The notes below the pieces were generated by a model that saw only the letters and a program-made list of their open reading frames with translations, made no database searches and was not told where the DNA came from. Shown one piece after another: positions 3,901-64,000 of a stretch of DNA of 64,000 nt. Positions within the stretch are counted from its first letter, which is position 1. Each line of letters opens with the position of its first letter. This DNA comes from a virus, in UHGV virus genome UHGV-0298424; one strand, 5' to 3'. The position numbers and the translations under genes are program-made.

Positions 3901-4208
3901 CAGATTTTGTCCTTTTCGAGTTCAGTTAAAATTTCAAACAGGTCTGCGTTGGACTGCAGTACGATTTCACTGCCTTCTGCTACAACAGTAATTAAAGGCT
4001 TCTTACCACGTAGCAAGAACTCCCAACGCATTGTTCTTACGTGGCTGTCGAGTAACTGTTTTAATTTGTGGTTAACTTCAACTTCCAATTTGCCCAGTAA
4101 CTGTGGTGTAATGCTTTCACCTGAGTTTTTGTTATAAAGTGTACGCACTAAAGAACGTAAAGAATAGCCAATGCACTGCGAAATTGCCCAACCCGAATAG
4201 TTTTCCAT
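3900..4208 (-). CDS. hypothetical protein
   Basis: 102-aa ORF in operon-like array. Confidence 0.4.
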   Translation of the reverse strand: MENYSGWAISQCIGYSLRSLVRTLYNKNSGESITPQLLGKLEVEVNHKLKQLLDSHVRTMRWEFLLRGKKPLITVVAEGSEIVLQSNADLFEILTELEKDKI

Positions 4209-4209
4209 G

Positions 4210-4755
4210 TTAATCCTTCAAAATGTCTTTAAGTTTTAGTTTTGTATAGAACGGAGAACTACTTAGTTCTTCTGTCCAACTTATACGTCCGTTCTGTAGA
4301 ACCCGGTCGAAGATTAGGCCGTTCATCTTTACAATTCTGGCCAATTGATAAAAGAGTGTCGCGAGATGTAGACGACGCTCCATTTGTGCGCGAGCGGTAC
4401 AACTTCGTACCGCTTTGATAGCAAGTACCGCTTCTGGCATCAACGTAACCGCGATTGACTCAGGATGTTCGTTTTTCCATTTCTTAATGGCTAGTAGTCG
4501 GTGTAGTGATTTTTCAAGGGGACGTAAATCCCCGTTATTCATCACGTAAACTAGAGCAGCAATATCCCACAAGGCGTTACCCACCGCTTTAGCAACAAAC
4601 AACCCGTCGTGTGATGTCGTGGATTCACAGACTTTGCCAATACTTCCATAAACACGTGCAGTCCATGCGTCTGTCTGTTCGCCGGGTTTTATACCCGCGT
4701 TATCCAGAAAGTGTTTAAACGCATTAACGTGATCAGTTAACTGTATTTGTTTCAT
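4210..4755 (-). CDS. hypothetical protein
   Basis: 181-aa ORF. Confidence 0.4.
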   Translation of the reverse strand: MKQIQLTDHVNAFKHFLDNAGIKPGEQTDAWTARVYGSIGKVCESTTSHDGLFVAKAVGNALWDIAALVYVMNNGDLRPLEKSLHRLLAIKKWKNEHPESIAVTLMPEAVLAIKAVRSCTARAQMERRLHLATLFYQLARIVKMNGLIFDRVLQNGRISWTEELSSSPFYTKLKLKDILKD

Positions 4756-4769
4756 TTCCGATACCCGAT

Positions 4770-5234
4770 TTAGTCACGAGACTTTATTTTAAGGTACGCA
4801 ACCGCAGCTCCCACGATTGCAATACCGGCGCCCCAACCTATCTTTTCTATTACACTCATATCGTCCCATCTTTTCTCTTCGTTACGTCGTTTGGCCTCGT
4901 CTGCCCGTTCTCTCCACATCGCTTCGCGTTCCAGACAGCTGGGATTTATTTCCTCTTCACAACGACGTTTCCGCTCTTCTTCCCTAACCAGTTCTTCTAA
5001 ATAGAGCCTCGTTTCTTCCACAGCTTGTTCATAGACGTCTATGCGTTCGGGAAGAATTCTCCTGTGAGCGGCTTTGTTGCGAACGGAAGCAATCATGTGG
5101 AGTTTCCGTTCGTATTTTGGTTCGAGAAGATGAGCTATGCTTTTGGTCTTCCCATGAAGCCCATGACCGGTACCGCCGAGTTTTTCCACAAGTTCTTCTA
5201 CAGAAATTGCAAGATCGAGAATATATCCACGCAT
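4770..5234 (-). CDS. hypothetical protein with C-terminal transmembrane helix
   Basis: start moved to ATG at 5234 with GGAGA SD; Glu/Arg-rich helix then GWGAGIAIVGAAVAYL hydrophobic tail. Confidence 0.4.
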   Translation of the reverse strand: MRGYILDLAISVEELVEKLGGTGHGLHGKTKSIAHLLEPKYERKLHMIASVRNKAAHRRILPERIDVYEQAVEETRLYLEELVREEERKRRCEEEINPSCLEREAMWRERADEAKRRNEEKRWDDMSVIEKIGWGAGIAIVGAAVAYLKIKSRD

Positions 5235-9882: not shown

Positions 9883-9953
9883 AATTCACTCCTAAAGAAT
9901 GTCTCACGTAGATAATATCTGTCTGACTTCTTTTTGAAATTGAGGTAGTAAGA

Positions 9954-36743: not shown

Positions 36744-37166
36744 TTAAATGAGAAAGTGGGCAACTCTTTTAATCTGTCTATAACTATCATCGATACCTCT
36801 TATTATTTCCAGACGTTCTTCTGAAGAAAGGCATTGGTTAATGTCTTCGTCAAGATTGAACAATGTCATGAGTTTTGCAATCGAAACTGCCAGGTTGTCC
36901 GATAGCTCGTTGTTTTTACGCCATTCTTCGTTACGGAAAATACAGATAAGGTCTTTCACCTGGTTTTCAGCGAGCGGTTTGGCTAACTGTGCGTCGCGCT
37001 GTTCGAGAAGGTATGCTTCGTTGGTAAGTAATTGTTTCAGGTCTTCTGGGTAAAGGGCAGCGCGAGTAACGATCAGTAATACAACAAACGGGTCTTTGAA
37101 CAATTCGTTTTTCATCTTTAGTTCTCCTAAAATGGTTTCGTTAAGTGAGAGTAACTGAACTCTCAC
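36744..37166 (-). CDS. hypothetical protein
   Basis: 140-aa ORF; conserved 21-bp motif and hairpin immediately upstream. Confidence 0.4.
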   Translation of the reverse strand: MRVQLLSLNETILGELKMKNELFKDPFVVLLIVTRAALYPEDLKQLLTNEAYLLEQRDAQLAKPLAENQVKDLICIFRNEEWRKNNELSDNLAVSIAKLMTLFNLDEDINQCLSSEERLEIIRGIDDSYRQIKRVAHFLI

Positions 37167-37190
37167 CTAAGTAATATATATCTGAAATTA
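37141..37190 (+). promoter_or_regulatory. hairpin plus conserved TAAGTAATATATATCTGAAAT motif (copy 1)
   Basis: GTGAGAGT...ACTCTCAC stem followed by the motif; near-identical element at 41520-41590. Confidence 0.35.
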
Positions 37191-37219
37191 TTTTTAATGT
37201 TGACGAACAAAAAATAAAA

Positions 37220-41519: not shown

Positions 41520-41590
41520 CGTAGGGACTGAAGTGCCAGTTCAGTCCCTATTCACTTAAGTAATATATATCTGAAATCAATTCCGATCTA
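41520..41590 (+). promoter_or_regulatory. hairpin plus conserved TAAGTAATATATATCTGAAAT motif (copy 2)
   Basis: AGGGACTGAA-loop-TTCAGTCCCT stem followed by the motif, about 15 nt upstream of the first plus-strand structural gene. Confidence 0.4.
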
Positions 41591-52978: not shown

Positions 52979-55900
52979 ATGCCGAGAGAAGACGCGGCGC
53001 AGTTTAACGGTACGCTAAGCACAGCGACGTACCCTAACCGATTTAACGTGGTCATTCCGCCTGAAGGACCTTTTTATCGTATCGGATTAAAACTCACAGT
53101 AGCCGACGATACCGCGCCTAACGGACGTCGTACTCTGATTGAGGGGTTGGACTACTATTTAGGCTATTACTTTAAAGAACTCGCAGAAGCTGAACAAGAT
53201 CAGATTTATGGCGGGTTTATGTTGCTTACTGCAACAGAAATCGAATATGAGATTTTAGGGGTAGCACGGCAGTATCGTGTACCGCAATCTGAAATCGGGA
53301 AGTTCTTAGTTCGTACTGACCTGAAAGACCCGCGTAACGTGGACTGGTCGGAGTTAATGGCGTACGCGCCGGTTATTCAACCAATCGACCCCCCTGCTAA
53401 CTTAGAAGAAGCTATTCTGAGGGACGAGGTCGTTAAAGCGTTGAACGATATCCGTAAGAAAATCGTTCAGCGTTCAACAGAGTTAGATGCGGCCTTCACC
53501 GAAGTCACTAACCTGATTTACGAGAACGGTAAAAAGATTTTCGATGAAGAACTATACCAACACCACCTTAATCCTAACGCTCACCAGTATACGACCAATG
53601 ACGTTGGGGCCCTTCCGGTTTTAGGACGTGCTGTTGACGCTACAAAAGCGTTTGGGTTGACAATTGACCAACTGGCTACGCTGATGGGTTCGGCGGGCAT
53701 TGAGCAATCAGACGTTGAACAGCTAATGGGTGAAGCCCTCGGTACCGTTTACGGTCGTTGGGGCACCACGAACGGTAACGAACTAACGTTTAAAACACCG
53801 GGTGGACACATCATCAGCATCCGTGGTGATAAGTGGTTAATTACCTCCCCGCAACCGTTAGTGATTAAAGCAGACCAAGACAACAACGAATCCGGTTTGG
53901 CGGTTGAGTTTAGTGCGGGACTGAATACGCTTTGGGTACACTCTGGGTCAGAACAGGATGTATTAGCACCGGTCTATAACTCTGTGTATCTCGTTACACC
54001 AGAAATGGTGAACATGTACCTGACGTCTGTAACGTTACTTGAAGCGAATGCCTATTTCAAACCGTCAGACACCGTAAAACCGTACGGTACAGCGAAGCAG
54101 TCTAACCCACTAACGTTGAACGCGAATATTCCCACAGCAACCGAGTCGGTTTATGGGGTGTTTTCGATTACGAATATCGCAACCTCTGTAGCGCTAGGCA
54201 CTGCTATTTCCCAAAAGGCTGTGACCGAGTTAAAAAACCGGTTGGACTTGTACGTTGACGACGACTACACGGTTAACGGTAAAGGGTTTGTTAAGACAGG
54301 CGACAACATGGTGTTAACCTTAACGAAGGCCGATTTCGGTATCGATAAGATGAATAACACCACACCCATCGCTAAACCGGTAACAAAAGCATTAGCGAAC
54401 GTGCTGAAAAATAAAAGTTTGAAGGTACACACGCACACTACCGCTGATTTGGATAATGTCCCGATTGGTAGCGCAACAGTTGACGGTATCTTACAGCTGT
54501 GGGATGCGATTGATACCACGAATGATAAAGCCGTCACATCACGCCAAGGGTGGCTGTTCGCAAAAGAGATTAAGAAGGTCTCTGATAAACTGAATACCCT
54601 CTTGCCCGCATGGACAACGGCCGGGAGCAAATATACCAACAATTCGATATTGCCGATCTTGTCGATGGGTAATTACGAAGGTTATGGTAAAAACATGGAT
54701 GCGCTCCAGATGGTTATAGGGGTACAACAAGGTAAGCTTTATGCTTTAATTAGCTCTAAATCCGCCCTTCCGGGAACTGAGGGTATTTATTACGCTGTTG
54801 CTGGGTTAAAAAACGACAAAAGTCTCGGTGAAATTTACAAAACAACTTTCCGTTATAAGCCGAAAGGGTTAGAGACGAATTATCCGGGGGTGGAACTAAA
54901 AGAAATTACCGTTACTGGTACCGAAGCATTTATAGCGAAGGGCAGCGACGATAATTATTATTTAGTTAAACTGAACGGTTCAATGGATTACACCAAACAT
55001 ACCGATGTCAGGTTGGTAACTTTCTCAGAATTTGTTTCAGAAACAACATGGGAATTTGTGCCGAATATGTTCATGGATCGTGTGGTCATAGCCGATAACG
55101 GCGTCTATGTTTTGCGTACGATGCTAATGGCCGATCTGAAAAACAATACTCTGGTGGACTACATTAAGGATACCCCACAACCCATGTTCCGTGTTGGCTT
55201 ATTGCGGCTTAATAAAACCGATCGGTTTGAACAGGTTGATTTAAGGTCTACACGAAAAATCGGTAAGTGTGCCGATTTGGTTGAACCTGGCGCGTTCGAT
55301 GTAGATAATCCGAATACGAAGCGTCTTGCCTACTTCACTGCGGAAGGCAAAGCGTTGTGGACAGTGAACTTACAATTAACTAGAGGGTCGTCAAGATGGA
55401 TAACGCCCGTTGTTAAGGACGGTCACTTGTTAACCGTCGGCGTGTCTGGTGTTTGTCTTGGTTTTTCTTCAACGAAAGGTACCACATTCGGGCCATGGAA
55501 TGGTGCTTATCGTCTTGACCTATTAACCGGGGAGGTTGGGTTAGAGACAACTAACGTCTTCCCAATCAAAATCGATACTACAGGTTGTTACTTAAAAGAC
55601 GGAACAAAAATAGAGCTGAAATGGAAATGGGCTACTCGAAGTTCTGGCTATATGGCCGACAATAGAATCTGTGTCGGTGATATGGTTTATTCTTGCTGCT
55701 GTTCGACAGAAAAACAACTCGCACCATCTCTCCATTACCAGAAACTCCCAGAAGGAGTTAGTTATCTGGACTATGTTAAGTTGAGTGTGGGGTATGAGGG
55801 GCAATCTACGTTTGAAAATCGGATAAACCCTGTGGTGGGTTCGGTGTGGAAACCGTCTATGACCTTCCCATTGTTCTTCCCAGGAACAAACAAAGTATGG

Positions 55901-58165
55901 CTTAAACATCAAAAATCGGCTTATTTCATTGAAGCCGAATATGATAAAAATACGACCTATGGTTATCCTGGATACGGTGGTTTTGGACCAACATCCCGCC
56001 GTGTTGAAAAAACAGCGAACGAATACGGCATATTGACAAATATACCGCTGGTTGTTACGCCAGAAATACCGAACGGCCTACTAGAAGGGGCTTATTTTAT
56101 CGGTGCCGAAAGTAAACCGTGTACAGTTGTTTACGGTACCACTACGGTGGGTAGTGATCGGTTGTCTATCGATGCGGCAGAATGGGCGAAGCTGACTAAT
56201 ATTGTTCAGTCCAGCCAGTTCTCCGGGGCATCTAACGGCAACGCCTATGAGCGGATTAGCGTAGCTAAGACCAAAAAGAACAACTACAGTTTGTCCTTTT
56301 GGGTGCTTGGTCAAACGATGTCTGGTGGTCCGCTTTGTATCGCGATAGTGAGTCTTATCTATAAAGACACTGACGGGGTAAATAAGTTTGCTTTTTACTT
56401 CTTTCAGGTAAAACCGACTATAACCAACGGGGTCATAAGGTTCGTTAGTTCGGAAGCGAGAATGATGACGTTCAGGGAAAAAGTGGCCAGTAACGCCATT
56501 AATCTCTCACCCACAGCTTTTAATGGTGAACTTAAACAACGCTCCGGTCAAGTTTTCCTTTATTCGCAAGACGGACAAAAGTTCAGATTCTCAATACATA
56601 ACCTGGTTGGTGGGAATCTTGTAGGATCAGAGATTTCTTTTGCTTTTGGGATAAACTTGACTAAAAAAGGCGAATGGTTTACCGGCGAAATTCATCGGGC
56701 GTGGGGCTATACGTATACGCTGAATAATACATCTGAAGTCTATATACCCGATCTCTCGGGCATCGCGCTATTGACTTGTAACTCGGAAGATTTAAACGAG
56801 TTGTATCTCGGCGGCGAACAGTATAGAATCTCTGATTTGTTTAACAAAAAATATACTGTTATCGATAAGATTATTATTGGCGGCGTACAAACACAGAGCG
56901 GTTGGAATTTCTATCTGACGGAGGAAACCGAGTTAAGTTTTGGAAATAAAAGATATACCGTTCCAAGATGGTCCGTTGATTTAAGCGATGAATTCCCGAC
57001 TAATCACGCTAACCAGACGTTCTACGTTTATGCTGAAGTGGTCGGTTCTACTGCCCAATACCGCATCGGTTTAGAGCAGTTAGCTGATACCTCGTCGAGA
57101 CTGTTTGTTGGGACAGTAACCACTGATTCGAACCGTATTACGGATATCAGTATCGATAAAGTAAAACGGTTAGGTCGTGTAAAAGAGCTGGAAAATCATG
57201 CCTCGATTGTTGATCAACACGATGTGGCGCAGGCATTCGACAGGAAAACTGGCCCACTATTAACGCTGGTTAATAAACCCGTTAAAGTCGTTACAGCATC
57301 TGCGAGCAAGGGTGCTGGGTATGTCGATGGTCAGAAATGGAATACGTTGTCCGGGATTACAACACGTTCCAGGTTGCCGGTACAGGAAACCTATTCAGGT
57401 TATAAAAGTATCAGCAGGGTGGCGTATGAGAACTGCGCTGACCAGTTCTGGCAGAAAGCGGTTGCTGCGAACGTTGCAGCGGCTACTGCTTCTGAGAACA
57501 AACAAGCAGCAACCGCGAACATGAAGTGGTTGGGCGCGTATACGAAACCGACTACTGGCGAGTATGCATATCTGGCATTGAGTCTGCGTGTTAAAGTACC
57601 TGGCGATCCTGGTACTGCTAATCGTAGACTGAAAATCAGGCTTGCGGCCCCGACAGGTATAACTCAAGTTCGTTACGGGCTAAATCAGTCTGGCGGTACG
57701 ATGACTGAACAGACAGTAACGCTAACTGCTAACAGTTACCTGGAAAAAGAACACGCGGGATTTAAGCCAGCCGCCGAAGTCCGCCTTCATGCTACGTTTG
57801 TCATTCCAAAAAATGAATACGATAGTTACCGGACCAAATTTGGTGCTGTTCAGCTGATTGACGTTGAGACGAACACTGTCATTAAACAGACAGATATCGA
57901 CACACCGTTTATCGTGTACACCGCCACAGAGCAAGCGGCACAATCTGGTTTGGTGTATAAAGCGGTTAAGAGTCAGTTTCGTCAACTCCCGGCTCAACCT
58001 GTCGTCATTGTAACTGATGGACAGACAGGGACTACACCACCGGTGAAAACCGCGTTTTCTGACGGGACATTAACGGTCTACGTGGCAACCACGTACGATG
58101 CGGTTAACCCAGCACAAACTCGCGATATCGATAAGCTCCAGTTCAATCTTATGTTTACATCTTAA
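52979..58165 (+). CDS. tail fibre protein (1728 aa)
   Basis: shared N-terminal domain (PPEGPFYRIGL...GLDYYLGYYF); LTLTKADFGIDKMNNTTPIAKPVT motif; very long ORF. Confidence 0.65.
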   Translation: MPREDAAQFNGTLSTATYPNRFNVVIPPEGPFYRIGLKLTVADDTAPNGRRTLIEGLDYYLGYYFKELAEAEQDQIYGGFMLLTATEIEYEILGVARQYRVPQSEIGKFLVRTDLKDPRNVDWSELMAYAPVIQPIDPPANLEEAILRDEVVKALNDIRKKIVQRSTELDAAFTEVTNLIYENGKKIFDEELYQHHLNPNAHQYTTNDVGALPVLGRAVDATKAFGLTIDQLATLMGSAGIEQSDVEQLMGEALGTVYGRWGTTNGNELTFKTPGGHIISIRGDKWLITSPQPLVIKADQDNNESGLAVEFSAGLNTLWVHSGSEQDVLAPVYNSVYLVTPEMVNMYLTSVTLLEANAYFKPSDTVKPYGTAKQSNPLTLNANIPTATESVYGVFSITNIATSVALGTAISQKAVTELKNRLDLYVDDDYTVNGKGFVKTGDNMVLTLTKADFGIDKMNNTTPIAKPVTKALANVLKNKSLKVHTHTTADLDNVPIGSATVDGILQLWDAIDTTNDKAVTSRQGWLFAKEIKKVSDKLNTLLPAWTTAGSKYTNNSILPILSMGNYEGYGKNMDALQMVIGVQQGKLYALISSKSALPGTEGIYYAVAGLKNDKSLGEIYKTTFRYKPKGLETNYPGVELKEITVTGTEAFIAKGSDDNYYLVKLNGSMDYTKHTDVRLVTFSEFVSETTWEFVPNMFMDRVVIADNGVYVLRTMLMADLKNNTLVDYIKDTPQPMFRVGLLRLNKTDRFEQVDLRSTRKIGKCADLVEPGAFDVDNPNTKRLAYFTAEGKALWTVNLQLTRGSSRWITPVVKDGHLLTVGVSGVCLGFSSTKGTTFGPWNGAYRLDLLTGEVGLETTNVFPIKIDTTGCYLKDGTKIELKWKWATRSSGYMADNRICVGDMVYSCCCSTEKQLAPSLHYQKLPEGVSYLDYVKLSVGYEGQSTFENRINPVVGSVWKPSMTFPLFFPGTNKVWLKHQKSAYFIEAEYDKNTTYGYPGYGGFGPTSRRVEKTANEYGILTNIPLVVTPEIPNGLLEGAYFIGAESKPCTVVYGTTTVGSDRLSIDAAEWAKLTNIVQSSQFSGASNGNAYERISVAKTKKNNYSLSFWVLGQTMSGGPLCIAIVSLIYKDTDGVNKFAFYFFQVKPTITNGVIRFVSSEARMMTFREKVASNAINLSPTAFNGELKQRSGQVFLYSQDGQKFRFSIHNLVGGNLVGSEISFAFGINLTKKGEWFTGEIHRAWGYTYTLNNTSEVYIPDLSGIALLTCNSEDLNELYLGGEQYRISDLFNKKYTVIDKIIIGGVQTQSGWNFYLTEETELSFGNKRYTVPRWSVDLSDEFPTNHANQTFYVYAEVVGSTAQYRIGLEQLADTSSRLFVGTVTTDSNRITDISIDKVKRLGRVKELENHASIVDQHDVAQAFDRKTGPLLTLVNKPVKVVTASASKGAGYVDGQKWNTLSGITTRSRLPVQETYSGYKSISRVAYENCADQFWQKAVAANVAAATASENKQAATANMKWLGAYTKPTTGEYAYLALSLRVKVPGDPGTANRRLKIRLAAPTGITQVRYGLNQSGGTMTEQTVTLTANSYLEKEHAGFKPAAEVRLHATFVIPKNEYDSYRTKFGAVQLIDVETNTVIKQTDIDTPFIVYTATEQAAQSGLVYKAVKSQFRQLPAQPVVIVTDGQTGTTPPVKTAFSDGTLTVYVATTYDAVNPAQTRDIDKLQFNLMFTS

Positions 58166-59460: not shown

Positions 59461-59472
59461 TAAGGATACGTG

Positions 59473-59865
59473 ATGGCGATCAGTGTTAAAAATGTGCGTG
59501 ACCGAATCACCAACGTAGAGAACCAAATGGCAACTGGCCCACGTGTTGATCCGCAAGTTGCGTCGAAAGCACATAACGCTGCTGATTCATTTTCAGGTTG
59601 GACACCCGGTCGATTAGATTGTGGAGGTAGCTGTAGCTGGACATGCTCAAACGGTTGTACGCATGGTTGTACGAGTTGTTCAGGTACATGTACATCGGTG
59701 TGCGTAGGAAGCTGTTCCTCTGCGTGTGGTAATCAATGCAGTGGTTGTAGCGGAACGTGTTCGGGTGGTTGTTCAGGATGTAGTGGGACTTGTAGTGGGG
59801 GATGTGCTGGACGTTGTTCCTCGGGGTGTAGCGGTTCTTGTGCAGGTGGTTGTTCTAACCCATAA
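59473..59865 (+). CDS. Cys-rich precursor-like protein A
   Basis: about 130 aa; leader-like N-terminus then DCGGSCSWTCS and about 30 Cys in C-S/T-G-x-C repeats; AAGGA SD. Confidence 0.6.
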   Translation: MAISVKNVRDRITNVENQMATGPRVDPQVASKAHNAADSFSGWTPGRLDCGGSCSWTCSNGCTHGCTSCSGTCTSVCVGSCSSACGNQCSGCSGTCSGGCSGCSGTCSGGCAGRCSSGCSGSCAGGCSNP

Positions 59866-59884
59866 AAAATAAGGATCAATTCGA

Positions 59885-60799
59885 ATGGAAGAACTTACTA
59901 GACCGACGGTATCCGATAAGCTCTACAGTAATCCGAGAACGTTAAACGTGATTACAACATCCAAATGTAATCTGGACTGTAGCTTCTGCGGCGGAGCCTA
60001 TTACATGCATAGAGAGGATACAACCGCAGAAGTACAAAAGGAAAGTATTATCGAGGCGCTGGAAAATAACCCGACTATCACAAATATCCAATGGTCAGGG
60101 GGCGAACCATTACTTGCCACGCGTAAAATTGATACCCTTATAGAAGAGATAAGGGAGAAGTATCCTCGTTGCGAACATTACCTGTATACCAACGGTTTAA
60201 AAATGCGTAAATCGCATCTACCGTTGTTAAAGGGTTTTGATAGTATCTTTTTTAGCATGGATGGATTCAAAGAATCAGAGCGTCCGTTCATGCGGATTAT
60301 CGAAGAAAAACAATACGAGGTTTTGGAGACAATTTACGAATTGAAAAATATTCGTACTTGGGCGGTTTTGACACGCGAGCGTATTGGGGATAAACGTTGG
60401 TACGAAGATATAATTGCGTTACATAACCACATTTACCATTATGGTTTTTGTGAGATGTCGCTGGTTTTGGACAAAAACATGCCAAAACCGTTATCTCCCG
60501 ATCACGTTATGAACTTTATTTACGGGTATTTTAGAATTCAGGAGAATATAGAAAGACTGAATTCGTCCAATCGAAGCGAATGTGCGTTTACGCTAAATGC
60601 GTTATTTGATGAACCCTGTAACACATGTAGTCGTTGTTTTCGCATTGAGTCTGACGGTGCCCAGAACCAAGTAAAGAACGTTGAAATCGTAACGCAACAC
60701 GGCTGTAGTGACTTGGCCAGAAAGGTTGGATTAGATGCTTACGACTATATACGTCGTGTGGTAGGGGCTAAGAATAGAGTCTCAGAAAAACTACGATAA
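59885..60799 (+). CDS. radical SAM enzyme 1 (SPASM/twitch-like)
   Basis: 304 aa; CNLDCSFC (Cx3Cx2C) at residues 28-35, SGGEPLL SAM motif, C-terminal Cys cluster EC...CNTCSRC...GC. Confidence 0.7.
   Translation: MEELTRPTVSDKLYSNPRTLNVITTSKCNLDCSFCGGAYYMHREDTTAEVQKESIIEALENNPTITNIQWSGGEPLLATRKIDTLIEEIREKYPRCEHYLYTNGLKMRKSHLPLLKGFDSIFFSMDGFKESERPFMRIIEEKQYEVLETIYELKNIRTWAVLTRERIGDKRWYEDIIALHNHIYHYGFCEMSLVLDKNMPKPLSPDHVMNFIYGYFRIQENIERLNSSNRSECAFTLNALFDEPCNTCSRCFRIESDGAQNQVKNVEIVTQHGCSDLARKVGLDAYDYIRRVVGAKNRVSEKLR
59957..60556 (+). repeat. three identical nucleotide blocks shared with radical SAM 2
   Basis: 54 nt (59957-60010 = 62919-62972), 41 nt (60191-60231 = 63153-63193) and about 84 nt (60473-60556 = 63436-63519) identical inside otherwise diverged paralogs. 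Confidence 0.6.
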
Positions 60800-60857
60800 T
60801 TTTACAGAAAGCGAATTATAATGTGTCCTAGGGGGCACTAAACCAGTAGGTATTAAA

Positions 60858-61256
60858 ATGGCGATTGGTTTATCTTCTTTAAAGGCCCGGCTAGATAACA
60901 TAGACTCTACTGCATTAAAAAATACAGGTGCGGTGCAGAACTATATTCGTGGTAAAGCCACTAATAATAGCGATCTGTTTGGAGGACAGCCGAGAAATCA
61001 CTATGACTGTGGAGGTAGCTGTAGCTGGACGTGCTCAAGTTGTTCGGGCGGCTGTACCGGCAACGCCTCCGGCGGCTGCGGTTCTTCCTGTTCAGCGAAC
61101 TGTGTTTCAGGATGTAGTACAGGTTGCACAGGTTGTAGCAGTACCTGCTCAGGAGGGTGCACAGGTAATTGCTCGGGCGGTTGTTCAAGTAGTTGCACCG
61201 GAACATGTTCAGGTTCATGTCGAGGCGGATGTCAGCAATCGTGTACTGGAAGATAA
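60858..61256 (+). CDS. Cys-rich precursor-like protein B
   Basis: 132 aa; same architecture as A with 23-nt identical stretch at the DCGGSCSWTCS codons. Confidence 0.6.
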   Translation: MAIGLSSLKARLDNIDSTALKNTGAVQNYIRGKATNNSDLFGGQPRNHYDCGGSCSWTCSSCSGGCTGNASGGCGSSCSANCVSGCSTGCTGCSSTCSGGCTGNCSGGCSSSCTGTCSGSCRGGCQQSCTGR

Positions 61257-61259
61257 GAA

Positions 61260-61463
61260 ATGATAAGTCTTAAAAACATACGCGACAGATTAGTAACGGC
61301 GGAGGGATATATCACCACCGCTAATGCAAACAACTATATTGCAAACCAAGGAACGGTTTCCTCAACCAACAATCTCGCAGGATTACCTTTAAGTCATTAT
61401 AATTGTAATGGCGGATGTAGTTGGTCGTGCAGCGGTAGCTGTAGTAAGGGGGCGGGGGGGTAA
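61260..61463 (+). CDS. Cys-rich precursor-like protein C (short core, ends in G7 run)
   Basis: 67 aa; starts 3 nt after the B stop; leader ISLKNIRDRL..., core NCNGGCSWSCSGSCSKGAGG; stop directly after the poly-G tract. Confidence 0.5.
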   Translation: MISLKNIRDRLVTAEGYITTANANNYIANQGTVSSTNNLAGLPLSHYNCNGGCSWSCSGSCSKGAGG

Positions 61464-61924
61464 GTAAGCCCTCTAGCGGTGGTTCTACGCCAACCCCTTC
61501 AAGACCAACCTACGACAACAAAGCCGTTGTTTATGTTGAGTCTAAGCTACACGCTAAAGATACTGTTCGTATCAATTTCTCTACTGGGGCTGTCTTTATT
61601 CAATGCGTAACGTTAACCGGTAGAGAGAAACCGATAAGGGTCTTTAAATCGTTACTGTCTGGAAAGTCCTACGCCTACCCTCAAGTTGCAATGGGTAATG
61701 GTATCACTGTTAATTTTACAGACGCGGCTAGTTTTAAGATAGACTCTATCGGTAATGCATCTTCTGCTTCTATCTCATTAGAAGTATTAAGTAATTCCGG
61801 CGGAAGCATGGCGATTAAGCAGCAACCGAGTAAATCAAACGGCTTTACTGCAGAATTTGAAGTTACCGGCAGGCAATGGCGTGGCGGGTTCTATACCTTG
61901 AACGTCAGATTGACCGTAAAATAA
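61448..61924 (+). CDS. possible C-terminal extension of protein C via -1 frameshift
   Basis: -1 frame open for about 158 codons from inside the G-run to 61924 with no ATG/GTG/TTG before 61691. Confidence 0.3.
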   Translation, partial: GGGGVSKPSSGGSTPTPSRPTYDNKAVVYVESKLHAKDTVRINFSTGAVFIQCVTLTGREKPIRVFKSLLSGKSYAYPQVAMGNGITVNFTDAASFKIDSIGNASSASISLEVLSNSGGSMAIKQQPSKSNGFTAEFEVTGRQWRGGFYTLNVRLTVK

Positions 61925-61936
61925 TTGGAGTAATCA

Positions 61937-62824
61937 ATGAAAAACGATTTGCATTTAGCCTATAAAACAATTTTCAACCACCCACTTCATATTTCTTCCC
62001 CCGATTCAATACGCGCTCATTTGGAAGATAAAGTTCGTTTGTTAACCCAGTTACCTGGCGAATGGCCCAAAGTGCGTGGTCGTTTTTTTACCGATCGCAA
62101 TAACTATTCAGTAGAAAACACTTTTAAAATACGCGATCTGACAGCAGAAAGCGTAGTGGTGTTTACCGGTGATTCAGATTTACGCGGTAAATTGGTTGAC
62201 GGTAAATATTTCTTTAGTGACGGTATTCTGAATAATTCTGTAGATTTGGAATTGTTCTTTACGCCATTTAAAGAGTTGAATGCGAAGCCTGTAGCACGAC
62301 GTTGGTGGTCTCCAGACTATCTTGGTTCATTCCCGTACTTTTATGCCCTGGTTCCTGTAGAAACAAAAAACTATGTTGATACTGAACCGTATATTGAAAT
62401 AGAAGGTTACGAGGAACTTGGCATCAACTGTTTAGCAGATCTGATGGCGTACAGTTACAAATTTATGTGGGATCGTGAACGTTCAGTATGGGTTGCCCTT
62501 ACAGATGAACATGAAATCACAAAACGTATTCGTAAACCATGGATGCAGCATTTAATTCAAACACGTATTGGTGAACATCCGTCATCGGAAGCAGATTTAG
62601 CGAAACTTGTTAGTTTCTTAATGACGAAAGTCACGTTAACTGATGAAGAAAAAGCGGCAGTGTCGGCGGTATTGGAACGTAACGTAACGTTAGCGGATCT
62701 AGAACGTTTAAACGTGCGTTATAAAGACCTTAATCGTATTATTGAGGCTTACAATTCACCGTTTGTATTAAAACCTGGAGTTAACGCTTACGACGATCCT
62801 TTGTTATCCATTGGCTATATTTAA
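61937..62824 (+). CDS. hypothetical protein in the radical SAM cluster
   Basis: 295-aa ORF with GGAG SD between the precursors and radical SAM 2. Confidence 0.5.
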   Translation: MKNDLHLAYKTIFNHPLHISSPDSIRAHLEDKVRLLTQLPGEWPKVRGRFFTDRNNYSVENTFKIRDLTAESVVVFTGDSDLRGKLVDGKYFFSDGILNNSVDLELFFTPFKELNAKPVARRWWSPDYLGSFPYFYALVPVETKNYVDTEPYIEIEGYEELGINCLADLMAYSYKFMWDRERSVWVALTDEHEITKRIRKPWMQHLIQTRIGEHPSSEADLAKLVSFLMTKVTLTDEEKAAVSAVLERNVTLADLERLNVRYKDLNRIIEAYNSPFVLKPGVNAYDDPLLSIGYI

Positions 62825-62831
62825 AAAATAG

Positions 62832-63770
62832 ATGGACTCACCTGCAATGACAACCTACGTAGAGCCAAGGTTATCGAATCGTTTATACAATAAACCCACC
62901 GTATTGTCCGTAGTTGCTACATCCAAATGTAATCTGGACTGTAGCTTCTGCGGCGGAGCCTATTACATGCATCGTGAAGATTCTCCGCGAGAGTTTCAAC
63001 GTGAACGAATTTTGAAAGCGTTGGCGTCTAACCCAACCATTACTGAAATTCAGTGGACTGGCGGTGAACCGCTACTGGCAACTCGAAAGATTGAGGCGTT
63101 TGTCGACGAATTAAAAACGATCCGTCCTGAACTCAAACACCAGATGTTCACGAACGGTTTAAAAATGCGTAAATCGCATCTACCGTTGTTAAAACAATTC
63201 GATGCTATATATGTTAGCATCGATGGGTTTAATCTTTCTGAACGGCCTTTTAAGCGCTTTATTGATGATAATTGTCATGAAGCGTTAGAAGTAATTTACA
63301 GCTTGAATAATGTTAACACTTGGGCTGTTGTTACGAGGGAGAATTTATCCAATAAAAGATGGCATGAAGATATCATTCAATTACATACTGCTATCTATCA
63401 TTACGGTTTTCGTTCCATGTCCTTATTACTAGATAAAAACATGCCAAAACCGTTATCTCCCGATCACGTTATGAACTTTATTTACGGGTATTTTAGAATT
63501 CAGGAGAATATAGAAAGATTAAACGTTCTAAATTCTAGAGACTGCGGTTTTATTGTAAACAGATTCTTCGATCATGCTTGTAATGTCTGTAGCGAAAGTC
63601 TCAGGATAGACGCGGACGGGGAAGAAAACCAACTTAAAAATGTACCAATAACTACAAAAGCAGGGTGTAACCAACTAGCCTCCTCAATAGGTGTAGAAGC
63701 TTACGAGTACATTCGTCGTGTAGTGATGGCAGAGCGTAATAGAGGGGCGGAAAATGAGTCAAGAAAATAG
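62832..63770 (+). CDS. radical SAM enzyme 2 (paralog of enzyme 1)
   Basis: 312 aa; CNLDCSFCGGAYYMHRED, TGGEPLL, C-terminal Cys cluster; three nucleotide blocks identical to enzyme 1. Confidence 0.7.
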   Translation: MDSPAMTTYVEPRLSNRLYNKPTVLSVVATSKCNLDCSFCGGAYYMHREDSPREFQRERILKALASNPTITEIQWTGGEPLLATRKIEAFVDELKTIRPELKHQMFTNGLKMRKSHLPLLKQFDAIYVSIDGFNLSERPFKRFIDDNCHEALEVIYSLNNVNTWAVVTRENLSNKRWHEDIIQLHTAIYHYGFRSMSLLLDKNMPKPLSPDHVMNFIYGYFRIQENIERLNVLNSRDCGFIVNRFFDHACNVCSESLRIDADGEENQLKNVPITTKAGCNQLASSIGVEAYEYIRRVVMAERNRGAENESRK

Positions 63771-64000
63771 TTATCCTAAACAACTGACTTATCAAATTGT
63801 TACAAATTTATCGTGTAACTTGGACTGTGAGTATTGTTACGAACGTAAGTATCCCCGTAATAACAAAGCGGCGGATATTGTTGATTTTCTACACGCTTGT
63901 TTTGAACGAGATAAAGATCTGACAAACATCGAGGTCGTTATCGATATCATCGGTGGTGAGCCGTTTATGCAGCCTAAACTATTAAAGGCGGCATTTGAAA
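63754..64000 (+). CDS. radical SAM enzyme 3 (partial, runs off window)
   Basis: ATG 63754 overlaps enzyme 2 stop; own translation MSQENSYPKQLTYQIVTNLSCNLDCEYCYERK...IGGEPFM. Confidence 0.6.
   Translation, partial: MSQENSYPKQLTYQIVTNLSCNLDCEYCYERKYPRNNKAADIVDFLHACFERDKDLTNIEVVIDIIGGEPFMQPKLLKAAFE

What the first reader, a model, noticed from the sequence alone, without database searches (positions are those of the whole stretch)
59957..63519. Radical SAM paralogs share blocks of 100% nucleotide identity
Radical SAM 1 and 2 are diverged over most of their length but share three perfectly identical stretches of 54, 41 and about 84 nt, covering the CNLDCSFCGGAYYMH cluster-binding site, RKSHLPLLK and DKNMPKPLSPDHVMNFIYGYFRIQENIERL. 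Precursors A and B likewise share 23 identical nt at the DCGGSCSWTCS codons. Perfect DNA identity within diverged paralogs suggests recent gene conversion or recombination, or nucleotide-level constraint.
Basis: seen in the sequence. Interest (0 to 1): 0.5.

Follow-up and report, generated by a model that had tools for sequence, protein, structure and literature searches.

The report
Gene-conversion islands between phage rSAM paralogs
Two old, diverged copies of a radical SAM enzyme gene in an uncultured SPN3US-like giant phage keep three short stretches of DNA identical because one copy is repeatedly pasted over the other there, which is a clear but ordinary case of gene conversion.

Summary
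rSAM1 (59885-60799) and rSAM2 (62832-63770) are 62% aa and 66% nt identical. They share perfect runs of 84, 54 and 41 nt; the next longest run is 8 nt. In the blocks, synonymous divergence is 0 of 33 sites, against 0.84 (saturated) outside them. The same codons diverge normally between single-copy orthologues, so there is no nucleotide-level constraint. Fifteen independent assemblies from at least three lineages carry the same two-gene layout. Each has its own block variants, and these are identical in both of its paralogs. That is recurrent, ongoing short-tract gene conversion. The direction is mainly rSAM1 into rSAM2. rSAM1 is an extra gene inserted between Cys-rich precursors A and B; SPN3US, Huxley and other relatives lack it. 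The 23-nt A/B identity is real and also co-varies, but the evidence is weaker. Three short metagenomic contigs are rSAM1/rSAM2 chimeras that break exactly in the blocks. They may be real recombinants or assembler path switches. This is a new example of a known process, of moderate interest.

The parts
59885..60799 (+). rSAM1: an extra ~304-aa radical SAM gene inserted between precursors A and B. It is absent from SPN3US, Huxley and L005-type relatives.
   Evidence: ORF. Pfam PF04055 scores 52.6 bits against a cutoff of 29.5. Synteny comparison. It branches outside the rSAM2+SPN3US clade on non-block residues.
62832..63770 (+). rSAM2: the positional orthologue of SPN3US gp164. Gene callers use the ATG at 62847, giving 307 aa.
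   Evidence: Its p-distance is 23% to the single-copy L005 gene and 42% to rSAM1.
59957..60010 (+). Block 1, rSAM1 copy (54 nt). It covers the CX3CX2C cluster-binding motif.
   Evidence: The block is 51-60 nt in other genomes.
62919..62972 (+). Block 1, rSAM2 copy
60191..60231 (+). Block 2, rSAM1 copy (41 nt; TNGLKMRKSHLPLLK)
   Evidence: Each lineage has its own variant, shared by both of its copies.
63153..63193 (+). Block 2, rSAM2 copy
60473..60556 (+). Block 3, rSAM1 copy (84 nt)
   Evidence: The block is 83-95 nt in other genomes.
63435..63518 (+). Block 3, rSAM2 copy. It carries the r1-type residues (DKN, ENIERL).
59470..59865 (+). Cys-rich precursor A. Its A/B island lies at 59620-59642 (23 nt).
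   Evidence: PHROG 6085. TIGR04114 scores 20.1 bits against a cutoff of 20.
60858..61256 (+). Cys-rich precursor B. Its A/B island lies at 61008-61030.
   Evidence: TIGR04114 scores 22.3 bits.
61260..61463 (+). Short precursor C. It ends in a G7 run (61454-61460) followed by TAA.
61937..62824 (+). gp165-like protein of unknown function (PHROG 8030). It lies inside the 2962-nt interval between the repeats.
63754..64000 (+). Start of the third radical SAM/SPASM gene (SPN3US gp163-like). It runs off the window.
   Evidence: The full-length L003 homologue hits TIGR04115 (CXXX-repeat maturase) best, at 120 bits against a cutoff of 350.

Best explanation
The blocks are products of recurrent, short-tract, non-reciprocal homologous recombination (gene conversion) between two direct-repeat paralogs 2962 nt apart. 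Shown: rSAM1 is an additional radical SAM gene that some lineages of this SPN3US-like jumbo phage carry between Cys-rich precursors A and B, and rSAM2 is the resident gp164 orthologue. Inferred: heteroduplex can form only where the two genes are similar enough, which is the three most conserved catalytic-core motifs. Each conversion restores perfect identity there and so makes the next one easier, while flanks that are about 40% diverged stop the tracts. This would give self-perpetuating homology islands with slightly mobile edges. The net direction has been rSAM1 into rSAM2. A weaker island of the same kind links precursors A and B. The recombinase involved is unknown.
For: (1) Runs of 84/54/41 nt against a maximum of 8 elsewhere; 55/55 same codons inside against 35.5% outside; P about 2e-25. 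pS is 0 inside against 0.84 outside. (2) All 15 two-copy assemblies, made by different assemblers and from different sources, keep the three blocks. (3) Co-variation: in the 158-nt core, r1-r2 shows 0 differences in every genome listed. W differs from L003 at 4 sites, W from L004 at 5, and L003 from L004 at 1. Every one of these is changed in both paralogs, including the non-synonymous S->T change and variants private to L003 or to L004. (4) Incongruence: outside the blocks W_r2 is 23% from its orthologue L005 and 41% from L003_r1. Inside the blocks it is 20/158 from L005 but only 4/158 from L003_r1. (5) No constraint in single-copy genomes: pS in block codons is about the same as outside. (6) Block edges move between near-identical strains, for example W 84 nt against L006 95 nt. 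At adjacent edge sites L006 took one base from r2 and one from r1, as expected from patchy heteroduplex repair. (7) Direction: the r1-type residues DKN and ENIERL appear in rSAM2 only in two-copy genomes. Block divergence between W and L003 (pS 0.15-0.18) is far below that of the rSAM2 flanks and the locus backbone (0.6-0.76). (8) The A/B island co-varies: GGA/GGA, GGT/GGT and GGC/GGC in three lineages, and full 34-nt identity with a private TGC in L006. It is absent from single-rSAM genomes.
Against: No recombination event has been observed directly. GGEPLLATRKI (33 nt of identical amino acids) has not become an island, which a pure homology-threshold model does not explain. Blocks are less diverged between the W and L003 lineages than the rSAM1 flanks are (pS 0.12-0.18 vs 0.37-0.42; only 33 synonymous sites), so exchange between phage lineages or a mild constraint may contribute. 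The A/B island shows unhomogenised SNPs in some strains (L020, L021, L023). The rSAM1 origin (horizontal acquisition or old duplication with acceleration) is unresolved.
Confidence: 0.87

Rival explanations
1. Nucleotide-level functional constraint: the blocks are RNA or DNA elements (a structure, a binding site or an antisense target) that must keep a given sequence in both genes.
For: Block 2 contains a small hairpin (ATGCG-N5-CGCAT, plus an outer stem) with z = -2.7 on the + strand and -4.5 on the - strand. A promoter-like site on the minus strand sits just 3' of block 3 in rSAM2.
Against: The block sequences differ between lineages at synonymous sites and at one non-synonymous site. Single-copy orthologues show no synonymous conservation in these codons. 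There are no Rfam hits. Blocks 1 and 3 fold no better than shuffles. Promoter-like hits are fewer than in shuffled sequence (3 vs 10.5). The hairpin arises from the Met-Arg...His codons and is broken in SPN3US and Huxley.
Confidence: 0.03
2. Assembly or consensus artefact: assemblers collapsed or homogenised near-identical stretches of the two copies.
For: The data are metagenome assemblies. Three short contigs show path switches at exactly these blocks.
Against: The blocks (38-95 nt) are shorter than typical reads and shorter than the final k of several assemblies (k141, k119). Fifteen assemblies from different pipelines agree. L018 keeps a copy-specific SNP inside block 1, so such differences do get resolved. 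An artefact would not produce lineage-specific variants shared by both copies.
Confidence: 0.02
3. A single historical event, such as a mosaic origin of rSAM1 or one old conversion, followed by slow divergence, with no ongoing process.
For: Within the W group alone the data cannot separate one event from many.
Against: Variants private to L003 (three sites) and to L004 (one site) occur in both paralogs, although the two genomes differ by only 1.7-4.7% in the flanks. Block edges differ between W and L006, which are 1-2% apart. One event cannot produce parallel changes in both copies on several branches.
Confidence: 0.04
4. Selected recombination linkers: the identical blocks are maintained because they let the phage population shuffle maturase segments, or delete or duplicate the precursor B/C-gp165 cassette, and so diversify a fibre-associated Cys-rich protein system.
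For: There are three chimeric contigs from three samples. L011 is the deletion junction at block 3. L012 is rSAM1 carrying a 600-nt rSAM2 tract from the start of block 1 to the end of block 3. L013 is the reciprocal junction. The locus lies next to tail and baseplate-fibre genes and also has a hypervariable poly-G tract.
Against: Chimeric proteins occur only on 1.3-2.7 kb contigs and on none of the long contigs seen, which number more than 60. Switches use only the blocks of 54 nt or more, as expected from k=55 graph junctions; this rests on my own reasoning about assemblers. Two donors give little diversity. Conversion alone explains the identity without invoking selection.
Confidence: 0.06

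Closest known systems
Concerted evolution of bacterial paralogs by RecA-type gene conversion (tufA/tufB in Salmonella and E. coli; rrn operons)
   Same: Intragenomic paralogs are kept identical by non-reciprocal recombination. Lineage-specific variants are shared by both copies. The tufA/tufB case is from my own knowledge. For rrn operons, PMC8022953 turned up, but I saw only its title and abstract.
   Different: Here only three islands of 40-95 nt are homogenised, inside genes that are otherwise saturated at synonymous sites. The genome is a jumbo phage, and the recombinase is unknown.
Micro-conversion tracts between diverged duplicates (for example globin or MHC paralogs)
   Same: Short patches of identity are embedded in diverged paralogs, and the test logic is GENECONV-like. 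A beta-globin example (PMC6209878) appeared; I saw only its title and abstract.
   Different: The setting is a virus rather than a eukaryote. The islands coincide with catalytic motifs and are stable in position across lineages.
Cassette-type antigenic variation (Neisseria pilE/pilS)
   Same: Conserved linker blocks alternate with variable segments, and segmental conversion ends in the linkers (own knowledge).
   Different: Both copies here are intact, expressed-looking genes and there are no silent cassettes. No evidence for a programmed initiator or for high-frequency variants was obtained.
CXXX-repeat peptide / radical SAM maturase systems (NCBIfam TIGR04114/TIGR04115)
   Same: Cys-rich repeat proteins are encoded beside a radical SAM/SPASM enzyme, and TIGR04115 is the best hit for the gp163-like enzyme.
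   Different: The maturase scores 120 bits against a cutoff of 350. The locus is phage-borne, next to tail genes, with two extra short rSAM enzymes. The precursors have ~50-60-aa N-terminal regions resembling tail-fibre motifs; that resemblance is my reading and was not tested.

Membership tests
Gene conversion / concerted evolution between paralogs | Segments with significantly lower (synonymous) divergence than the rest of the paralog pair | tested here: met
   pS is 0/33 against 0.84. 55/55 same codons against 43/121. Permutation P<=1e-5.
Gene conversion / concerted evolution between paralogs | Phylogenetic incongruence: paralogs of one genome group together in the segment, while orthologues group together in the flanks | tested here: met
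   Distance matrices for the block core and for non-block columns; tree on non-block residues.
Gene conversion / concerted evolution between paralogs | Lineage-specific substitutions shared by both copies on several independent branches | tested here: met
   Register columns 98, 302, 308, 311, 317, 327, 335 and 659 across the W, L003/L024 and L004 lineages.
Gene conversion / concerted evolution between paralogs | Direct observation of conversion events or intermediates | not testable with these tools
   This needs reads or experiments. The chimeric contigs L011-L013 are ambiguous.
Radical SAM superfamily | CX3CX2C cluster motif and a Pfam PF04055 score above the gathering threshold | tested here: met
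   CNLDCSFC is present in both genes. Scores are 52.6 and 50.0 bits against 29.5. A GGE motif is present (alignment).
CXXX-repeat rSAM maturase system (TIGR04114/TIGR04115) | Precursor reaches the TIGR04114 cutoff | tested here: met
   Precursor A scores 20.1 and B scores 22.3 against a cutoff of 20, which is marginal. Precursor C has no hit.
CXXX-repeat rSAM maturase system (TIGR04114/TIGR04115) | Maturase reaches the TIGR04115 equivalog cutoff | tested here: not met
   The gp163-like enzyme scores 120 bits against 350. rSAM1 and rSAM2 reach no family cutoff.
Programmed cassette recombination (pilE/pilS-like) | Silent partial donor cassettes plus one expression locus | tested here: not met
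   Both copies are intact full-length ORFs under purifying selection (r1 pN/pS about 0.08). No further copy was found in the window.
Structured RNA / cis-regulatory element | Match to a known family, or nucleotide conservation across orthologues | tested here: not met
   No Rfam hit at E<=1. No synonymous conservation in single-copy genomes.

The most novel reading that the evidence does not exclude
The identical blocks are not merely a by-product of conversion. On this reading they are maintained as crossover linkers that let this phage population swap segments between its two maturases, and delete or duplicate the precursor B/C-gp165 cassette. Together with the hypervariable poly-G fusion site, this would generate heritable variation in a tail-associated Cys-rich protein system. 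The chimeric contigs L011-L013 would then be real variants.
Probability: 0.08. Interest if true: 0.7.

Novelty: new member of a known kind. Interest (0 to 1): 0.4.

Why it matters
This is an unusually clean natural example of concerted evolution inside a virus. Many near-complete genomes let conversion events be placed on branches, the direction be read, and tract edges be seen moving. It shows that an acquired paralog can overwrite the catalytic motifs of the resident gene while the rest of both genes stays distinct. There are practical consequences too. The blocks are places where assemblers and recombination analyses can go wrong, and trees of these rSAM genes must mask them. The underlying locus is uncharacterised and may deserve more attention than the blocks themselves: three Cys-rich proteins and up to three radical SAM enzymes beside the baseplate-fibre genes of SPN3US-like phages.

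Tried and rejected
- **RNA element:** Rfam gave no hits. Folding gave only a small hairpin in block 2, explainable by the codons.
- **Promoter or terminator inside the blocks:** nothing above the shuffle expectation.
- **Third template copy:** whole-window repeat search found none, and the protein searches found no additional paralog cluster.
- **Compositional sign of foreign origin for rSAM1:** none. GC is 0.41 against 0.40 for rSAM2.
- **Known cultured phage with the same duplication:** none. All listed INPHARED records of the 65 that matched show one place, and megablast of the locus found only a 187-nt hit.
- **Literature on the SPN3US rSAM genes, Cys-rich phage proteins or CXXX-repeat systems:** nothing relevant. 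The only useful point was that gp168 is a tail protein similar to phiKZ gp131 (PMC5105663).
- **Polarising conversion direction with an rSAM1-only genome:** none exists in the data.
- **Structure prediction:** not run, because coordinates are not returned and it would not bear on the question.
Full report
**What is there**

The end of the window is syntenic with Salmonella phage SPN3US genes 168 to 163. The genes in order are:
- a 1728-aa gp168-like protein (52979-58165). In SPN3US, gp168 is a tail protein similar to phiKZ gp131 (PMC5105663).
- a gp167-like coiled-coil protein.
- Cys/Ser/Gly-rich protein A (59470-59865).
- rSAM1 (59885-60799).
- Cys-rich protein B (60858-61256).
- short protein C (61260-61463).
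- a gp165-like protein (61937-62824).
- rSAM2 (62832-63770).
- the start of a gp163-like radical SAM/SPASM gene (from 63754).

SPN3US, Erwinia phage Huxley and four metagenomic relatives (L005, L008-L010) have A-B-C-gp165-rSAM-SPASM with a single ~300-aa rSAM gene. All listed cultured-phage records of the 65 that match have one copy. rSAM1 is therefore an additional gene sitting between A and B. The same two-copy layout occurs in 15 independent assemblies: the window, L006, L003=L007, L004 and L014-L024. Most come from contigs of about 225 kb.

**The observation**

rSAM1 and rSAM2 are 62% identical in protein and 66% in DNA. Among codons that encode the same amino acid in both genes, 55/55 are identical inside the blocks and 43/121 outside. 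The naive P is about 2e-25, and the permutation P for the longest run is <=1e-5 in W and L006 and <=1.4e-4 in L003 and L004. Nei-Gojobori pS is 0/33 inside and 0.84 (saturated) outside. GGEPLLATRKI is conserved in protein but differs at most synonymous positions. Amino-acid conservation alone therefore does not give DNA identity.

**Constraint or conversion**

Two tests separate these readings.
- **No synonymous constraint in single-copy genomes.** In genomes with only one rSAM gene, the block codons diverge at synonymous sites as fast as the rest of the gene. L005-SPN3US gives 0.73 vs 0.76, L005-Huxley 0.85 vs 0.75, SPN3US-Huxley 0.86 vs 0.70, and L005-L009 0.086 vs 0.061.
- **Co-variation within genomes.** The blocks are not the same in all two-copy genomes. 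In the 158 columns common to all blocks, the two paralogs of a genome never differ. W differs from L003 at 4 sites, W from L004 at 5, and L003 from L004 at 1.

Every one of those differences is present in both paralogs of the genome concerned. For example, block 2 reads AACGGTTTAAAAATGCGTAAATCGCATCTA in W, AATGGCTTAAAGATGCGTAAAACGCATCTA in L003 and AACGGTTTAAAGATGCGTAAAACGCATCTC in L004, each in both copies. This includes a Ser-to-Thr change. It also includes variants private to L003 or to L004, whose flanks differ by only 1.7-4.7%. Parallel change of both copies on several branches is the signature of repeated gene conversion. I count at least one event in block 1, three in block 2, one or two in block 3 plus edge events between W and L006, and about three in the A/B island.

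**Edges, direction and history**

Block lengths vary between genomes: 51-60, 38-47 and 83-95 nt. W and L006 differ by 1-2% in the flanks. Even so, block 3 is 84 nt in W and 95 nt in L006. At two neighbouring edge sites, L006 took the rSAM2 base in one case and the rSAM1 base in the other. L018 carries a single synonymous SNP inside block 1 of rSAM2 only. This shows both that the blocks mutate and that assemblies resolve copy-specific differences.

On non-block residues rSAM1 branches outside the clade formed by rSAM2, its single-copy orthologues and the SPN3US group. Between the W and L003 lineages, synonymous divergence is as follows:

| Region | pS, W vs L003 lineage |
|---|---|
| gp167, A, B, C, gp165 and rSAM2 | 0.6-0.76 |
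| rSAM1 flanks | 0.42 |
| blocks | 0.15-0.18 |

The rSAM2 blocks of W are 4/158 from the rSAM1 of L003 but 20/158 from their own orthologue in L005. The flanks show the reverse (41% vs 23%). Residues typical of rSAM1 (DKN, ENIERL) appear in rSAM2 only in two-copy genomes. I infer that rSAM1 is a later-spreading gene and that conversion has run mostly from rSAM1 into rSAM2. Whether rSAM1 arose by horizontal acquisition or by an old duplication is not settled. Both genes are under purifying selection (rSAM1 pN/pS about 0.08).

**Precursors A and B**

The 23-nt identity is real. In W alone it is only modestly significant. However, the Gly codon in DCGG is GGA/GGA in W, GGT/GGT in L003 and GGC/GGC in L004. 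L006 has 34 identical nt with a private TGC in both genes. In single-rSAM genomes A and B use different codons at 5-6 of the 10 degenerate positions. Some W-type strains show unhomogenised SNPs. Conversion therefore acts here too, but less efficiently. I cannot explain why it is seen only in genomes that also carry rSAM1.

**Mechanism proposed**

- **Shown:** identity islands, co-variation, moving edges, and a bias in direction.
- **Inferred:** heteroduplex between the direct repeats forms only in the most conserved motifs. The native versions share runs of just 15-20 nt and about 87% identity there. Conversion makes these motifs identical, which favours further conversion. Flanks that are ~40% diverged, and probably selection to keep the two enzymes distinct, limit the tracts.
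- **Unknown:** the recombinase. The model also does not explain why GGEPLLATRKI is not an island.

**Chimeric contigs**

Three short ENA contigs are clean rSAM1/rSAM2 mosaics with junctions in the blocks.
- L011 joins A-rSAM1 to the rSAM2 3' part and gp163 at block 3. This is the deletion product.
- L012 is rSAM1 carrying rSAM2 sequence from the first base of block 1 to the last base of block 3 (600 nt, 99.7% identical to W).
- L013 joins gp165-rSAM2 to the rSAM1 3' part and B. This is the reciprocal product.

They could be real recombinants. However, chimeric proteins occur only on 1.3-2.7 kb contigs and never on long contigs. Switches use only blocks of 54 nt or more, which is what k=55 graph junctions would give (my reasoning). 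I rate them more likely artefacts than not. Reads are needed to decide.

**What the genes are**

rSAM1 and rSAM2 are bona fide radical SAM proteins (PF04055; CX3CX2C) but reach no NCBIfam family cutoff. The closest solved sequences match only the core, at E about 1e-4. The gp163-like enzyme hits the CXXX-repeat peptide maturase model best but below its cutoff. Precursors A and B just reach the Cys-rich repeat model. The locus therefore resembles a RiPP-like Cys-rich peptide/rSAM system placed beside tail genes. Its chemistry is unknown, and I found no paper on it.

**Verdict**

Gene conversion is supported at high confidence, and nucleotide-level constraint and assembly artefact are rejected. 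This is a new, well-resolved instance of a known process in an unusual setting, so interest is moderate.

Noticed in passing
window 61449-61927 (G-run 61454-61460); L014-L023, L006: Precursor C ends in ...GCG GGG GGG TAA. A 158-codon stop-free frame (-1 relative to C) runs from the G-run to 61924 and has no start codon before 61691. The G-run varies from 7 to 11 among genomes under 1% apart. In L023 (11 G) a 222-aa in-frame C-fusion is called. L005 keeps only a decayed remnant, and L003, L004 and SPN3US lack the extension. Possible explanations are phase variation or slippage, a programmed frameshift, or homopolymer sequencing error.
   Followed up: partly
L011 (1-2733), L012 (1-1482), L013 (1-1366): These short metagenomic contigs are exact rSAM1/rSAM2 chimeras with breakpoints in blocks 1 and 3. 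They correspond to a deletion junction, an internal 600-nt replacement and a reciprocal junction. They may be real recombinants or assembler path switches.
   Followed up: partly
L001 (SPN3US) 4031-4429 and 4848-5066: The SPN3US GenBank record annotates only precursor B (gp166). The homologues of precursor A (~130 aa) and precursor C (~70 aa) are open but unannotated, and the same is true in Huxley.
   Followed up: no
window 59885-60799 versus neighbours: rSAM1 is much less diverged between the W and L003/L004 lineages (pS 0.42, 95% aa) than all neighbouring genes (pS 0.6-0.76). This suggests the extra gene spread between lineages after they split.
   Followed up: partly
window 37163-37193, 41552-41582 (weaker copies at 9904 and 19024): There is a repeated AT-rich motif, TCACyTAAGTAATATATATCTGAAAT. 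It may be a phage promoter or regulatory site.
   Followed up: no
window 60191-60231 / 63153-63193: Block 2 can form a small hairpin (ATGCG-TAAAT-CGCAT within AACGGT...ACCGTT), with z -2.7 and -4.5. It probably follows from the Met-Arg-Lys-Ser-His codons, and it is broken in SPN3US and Huxley.
   Followed up: partly
window 60800-60857: The 58-nt spacer between rSAM1 and precursor B is conserved in L003 and contains the inverted repeat GTGTCCTAGGGGGCAC. Single-rSAM genomes have only about 13 nt between A and B.
   Followed up: no
window 59470-61463 (precursors A, B, C): In all three Cys-rich proteins, the residues just before the DCGG/NCNG motif (NAADSFSGW..., NNSDLFGGQ..., STNNLAGLP...HY) look to me like the conserved NADxLDG-type motif of tail-fibre proteins. 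That would hint at structural fibre-like proteins rather than secreted peptides. This was not tested.
   Followed up: no
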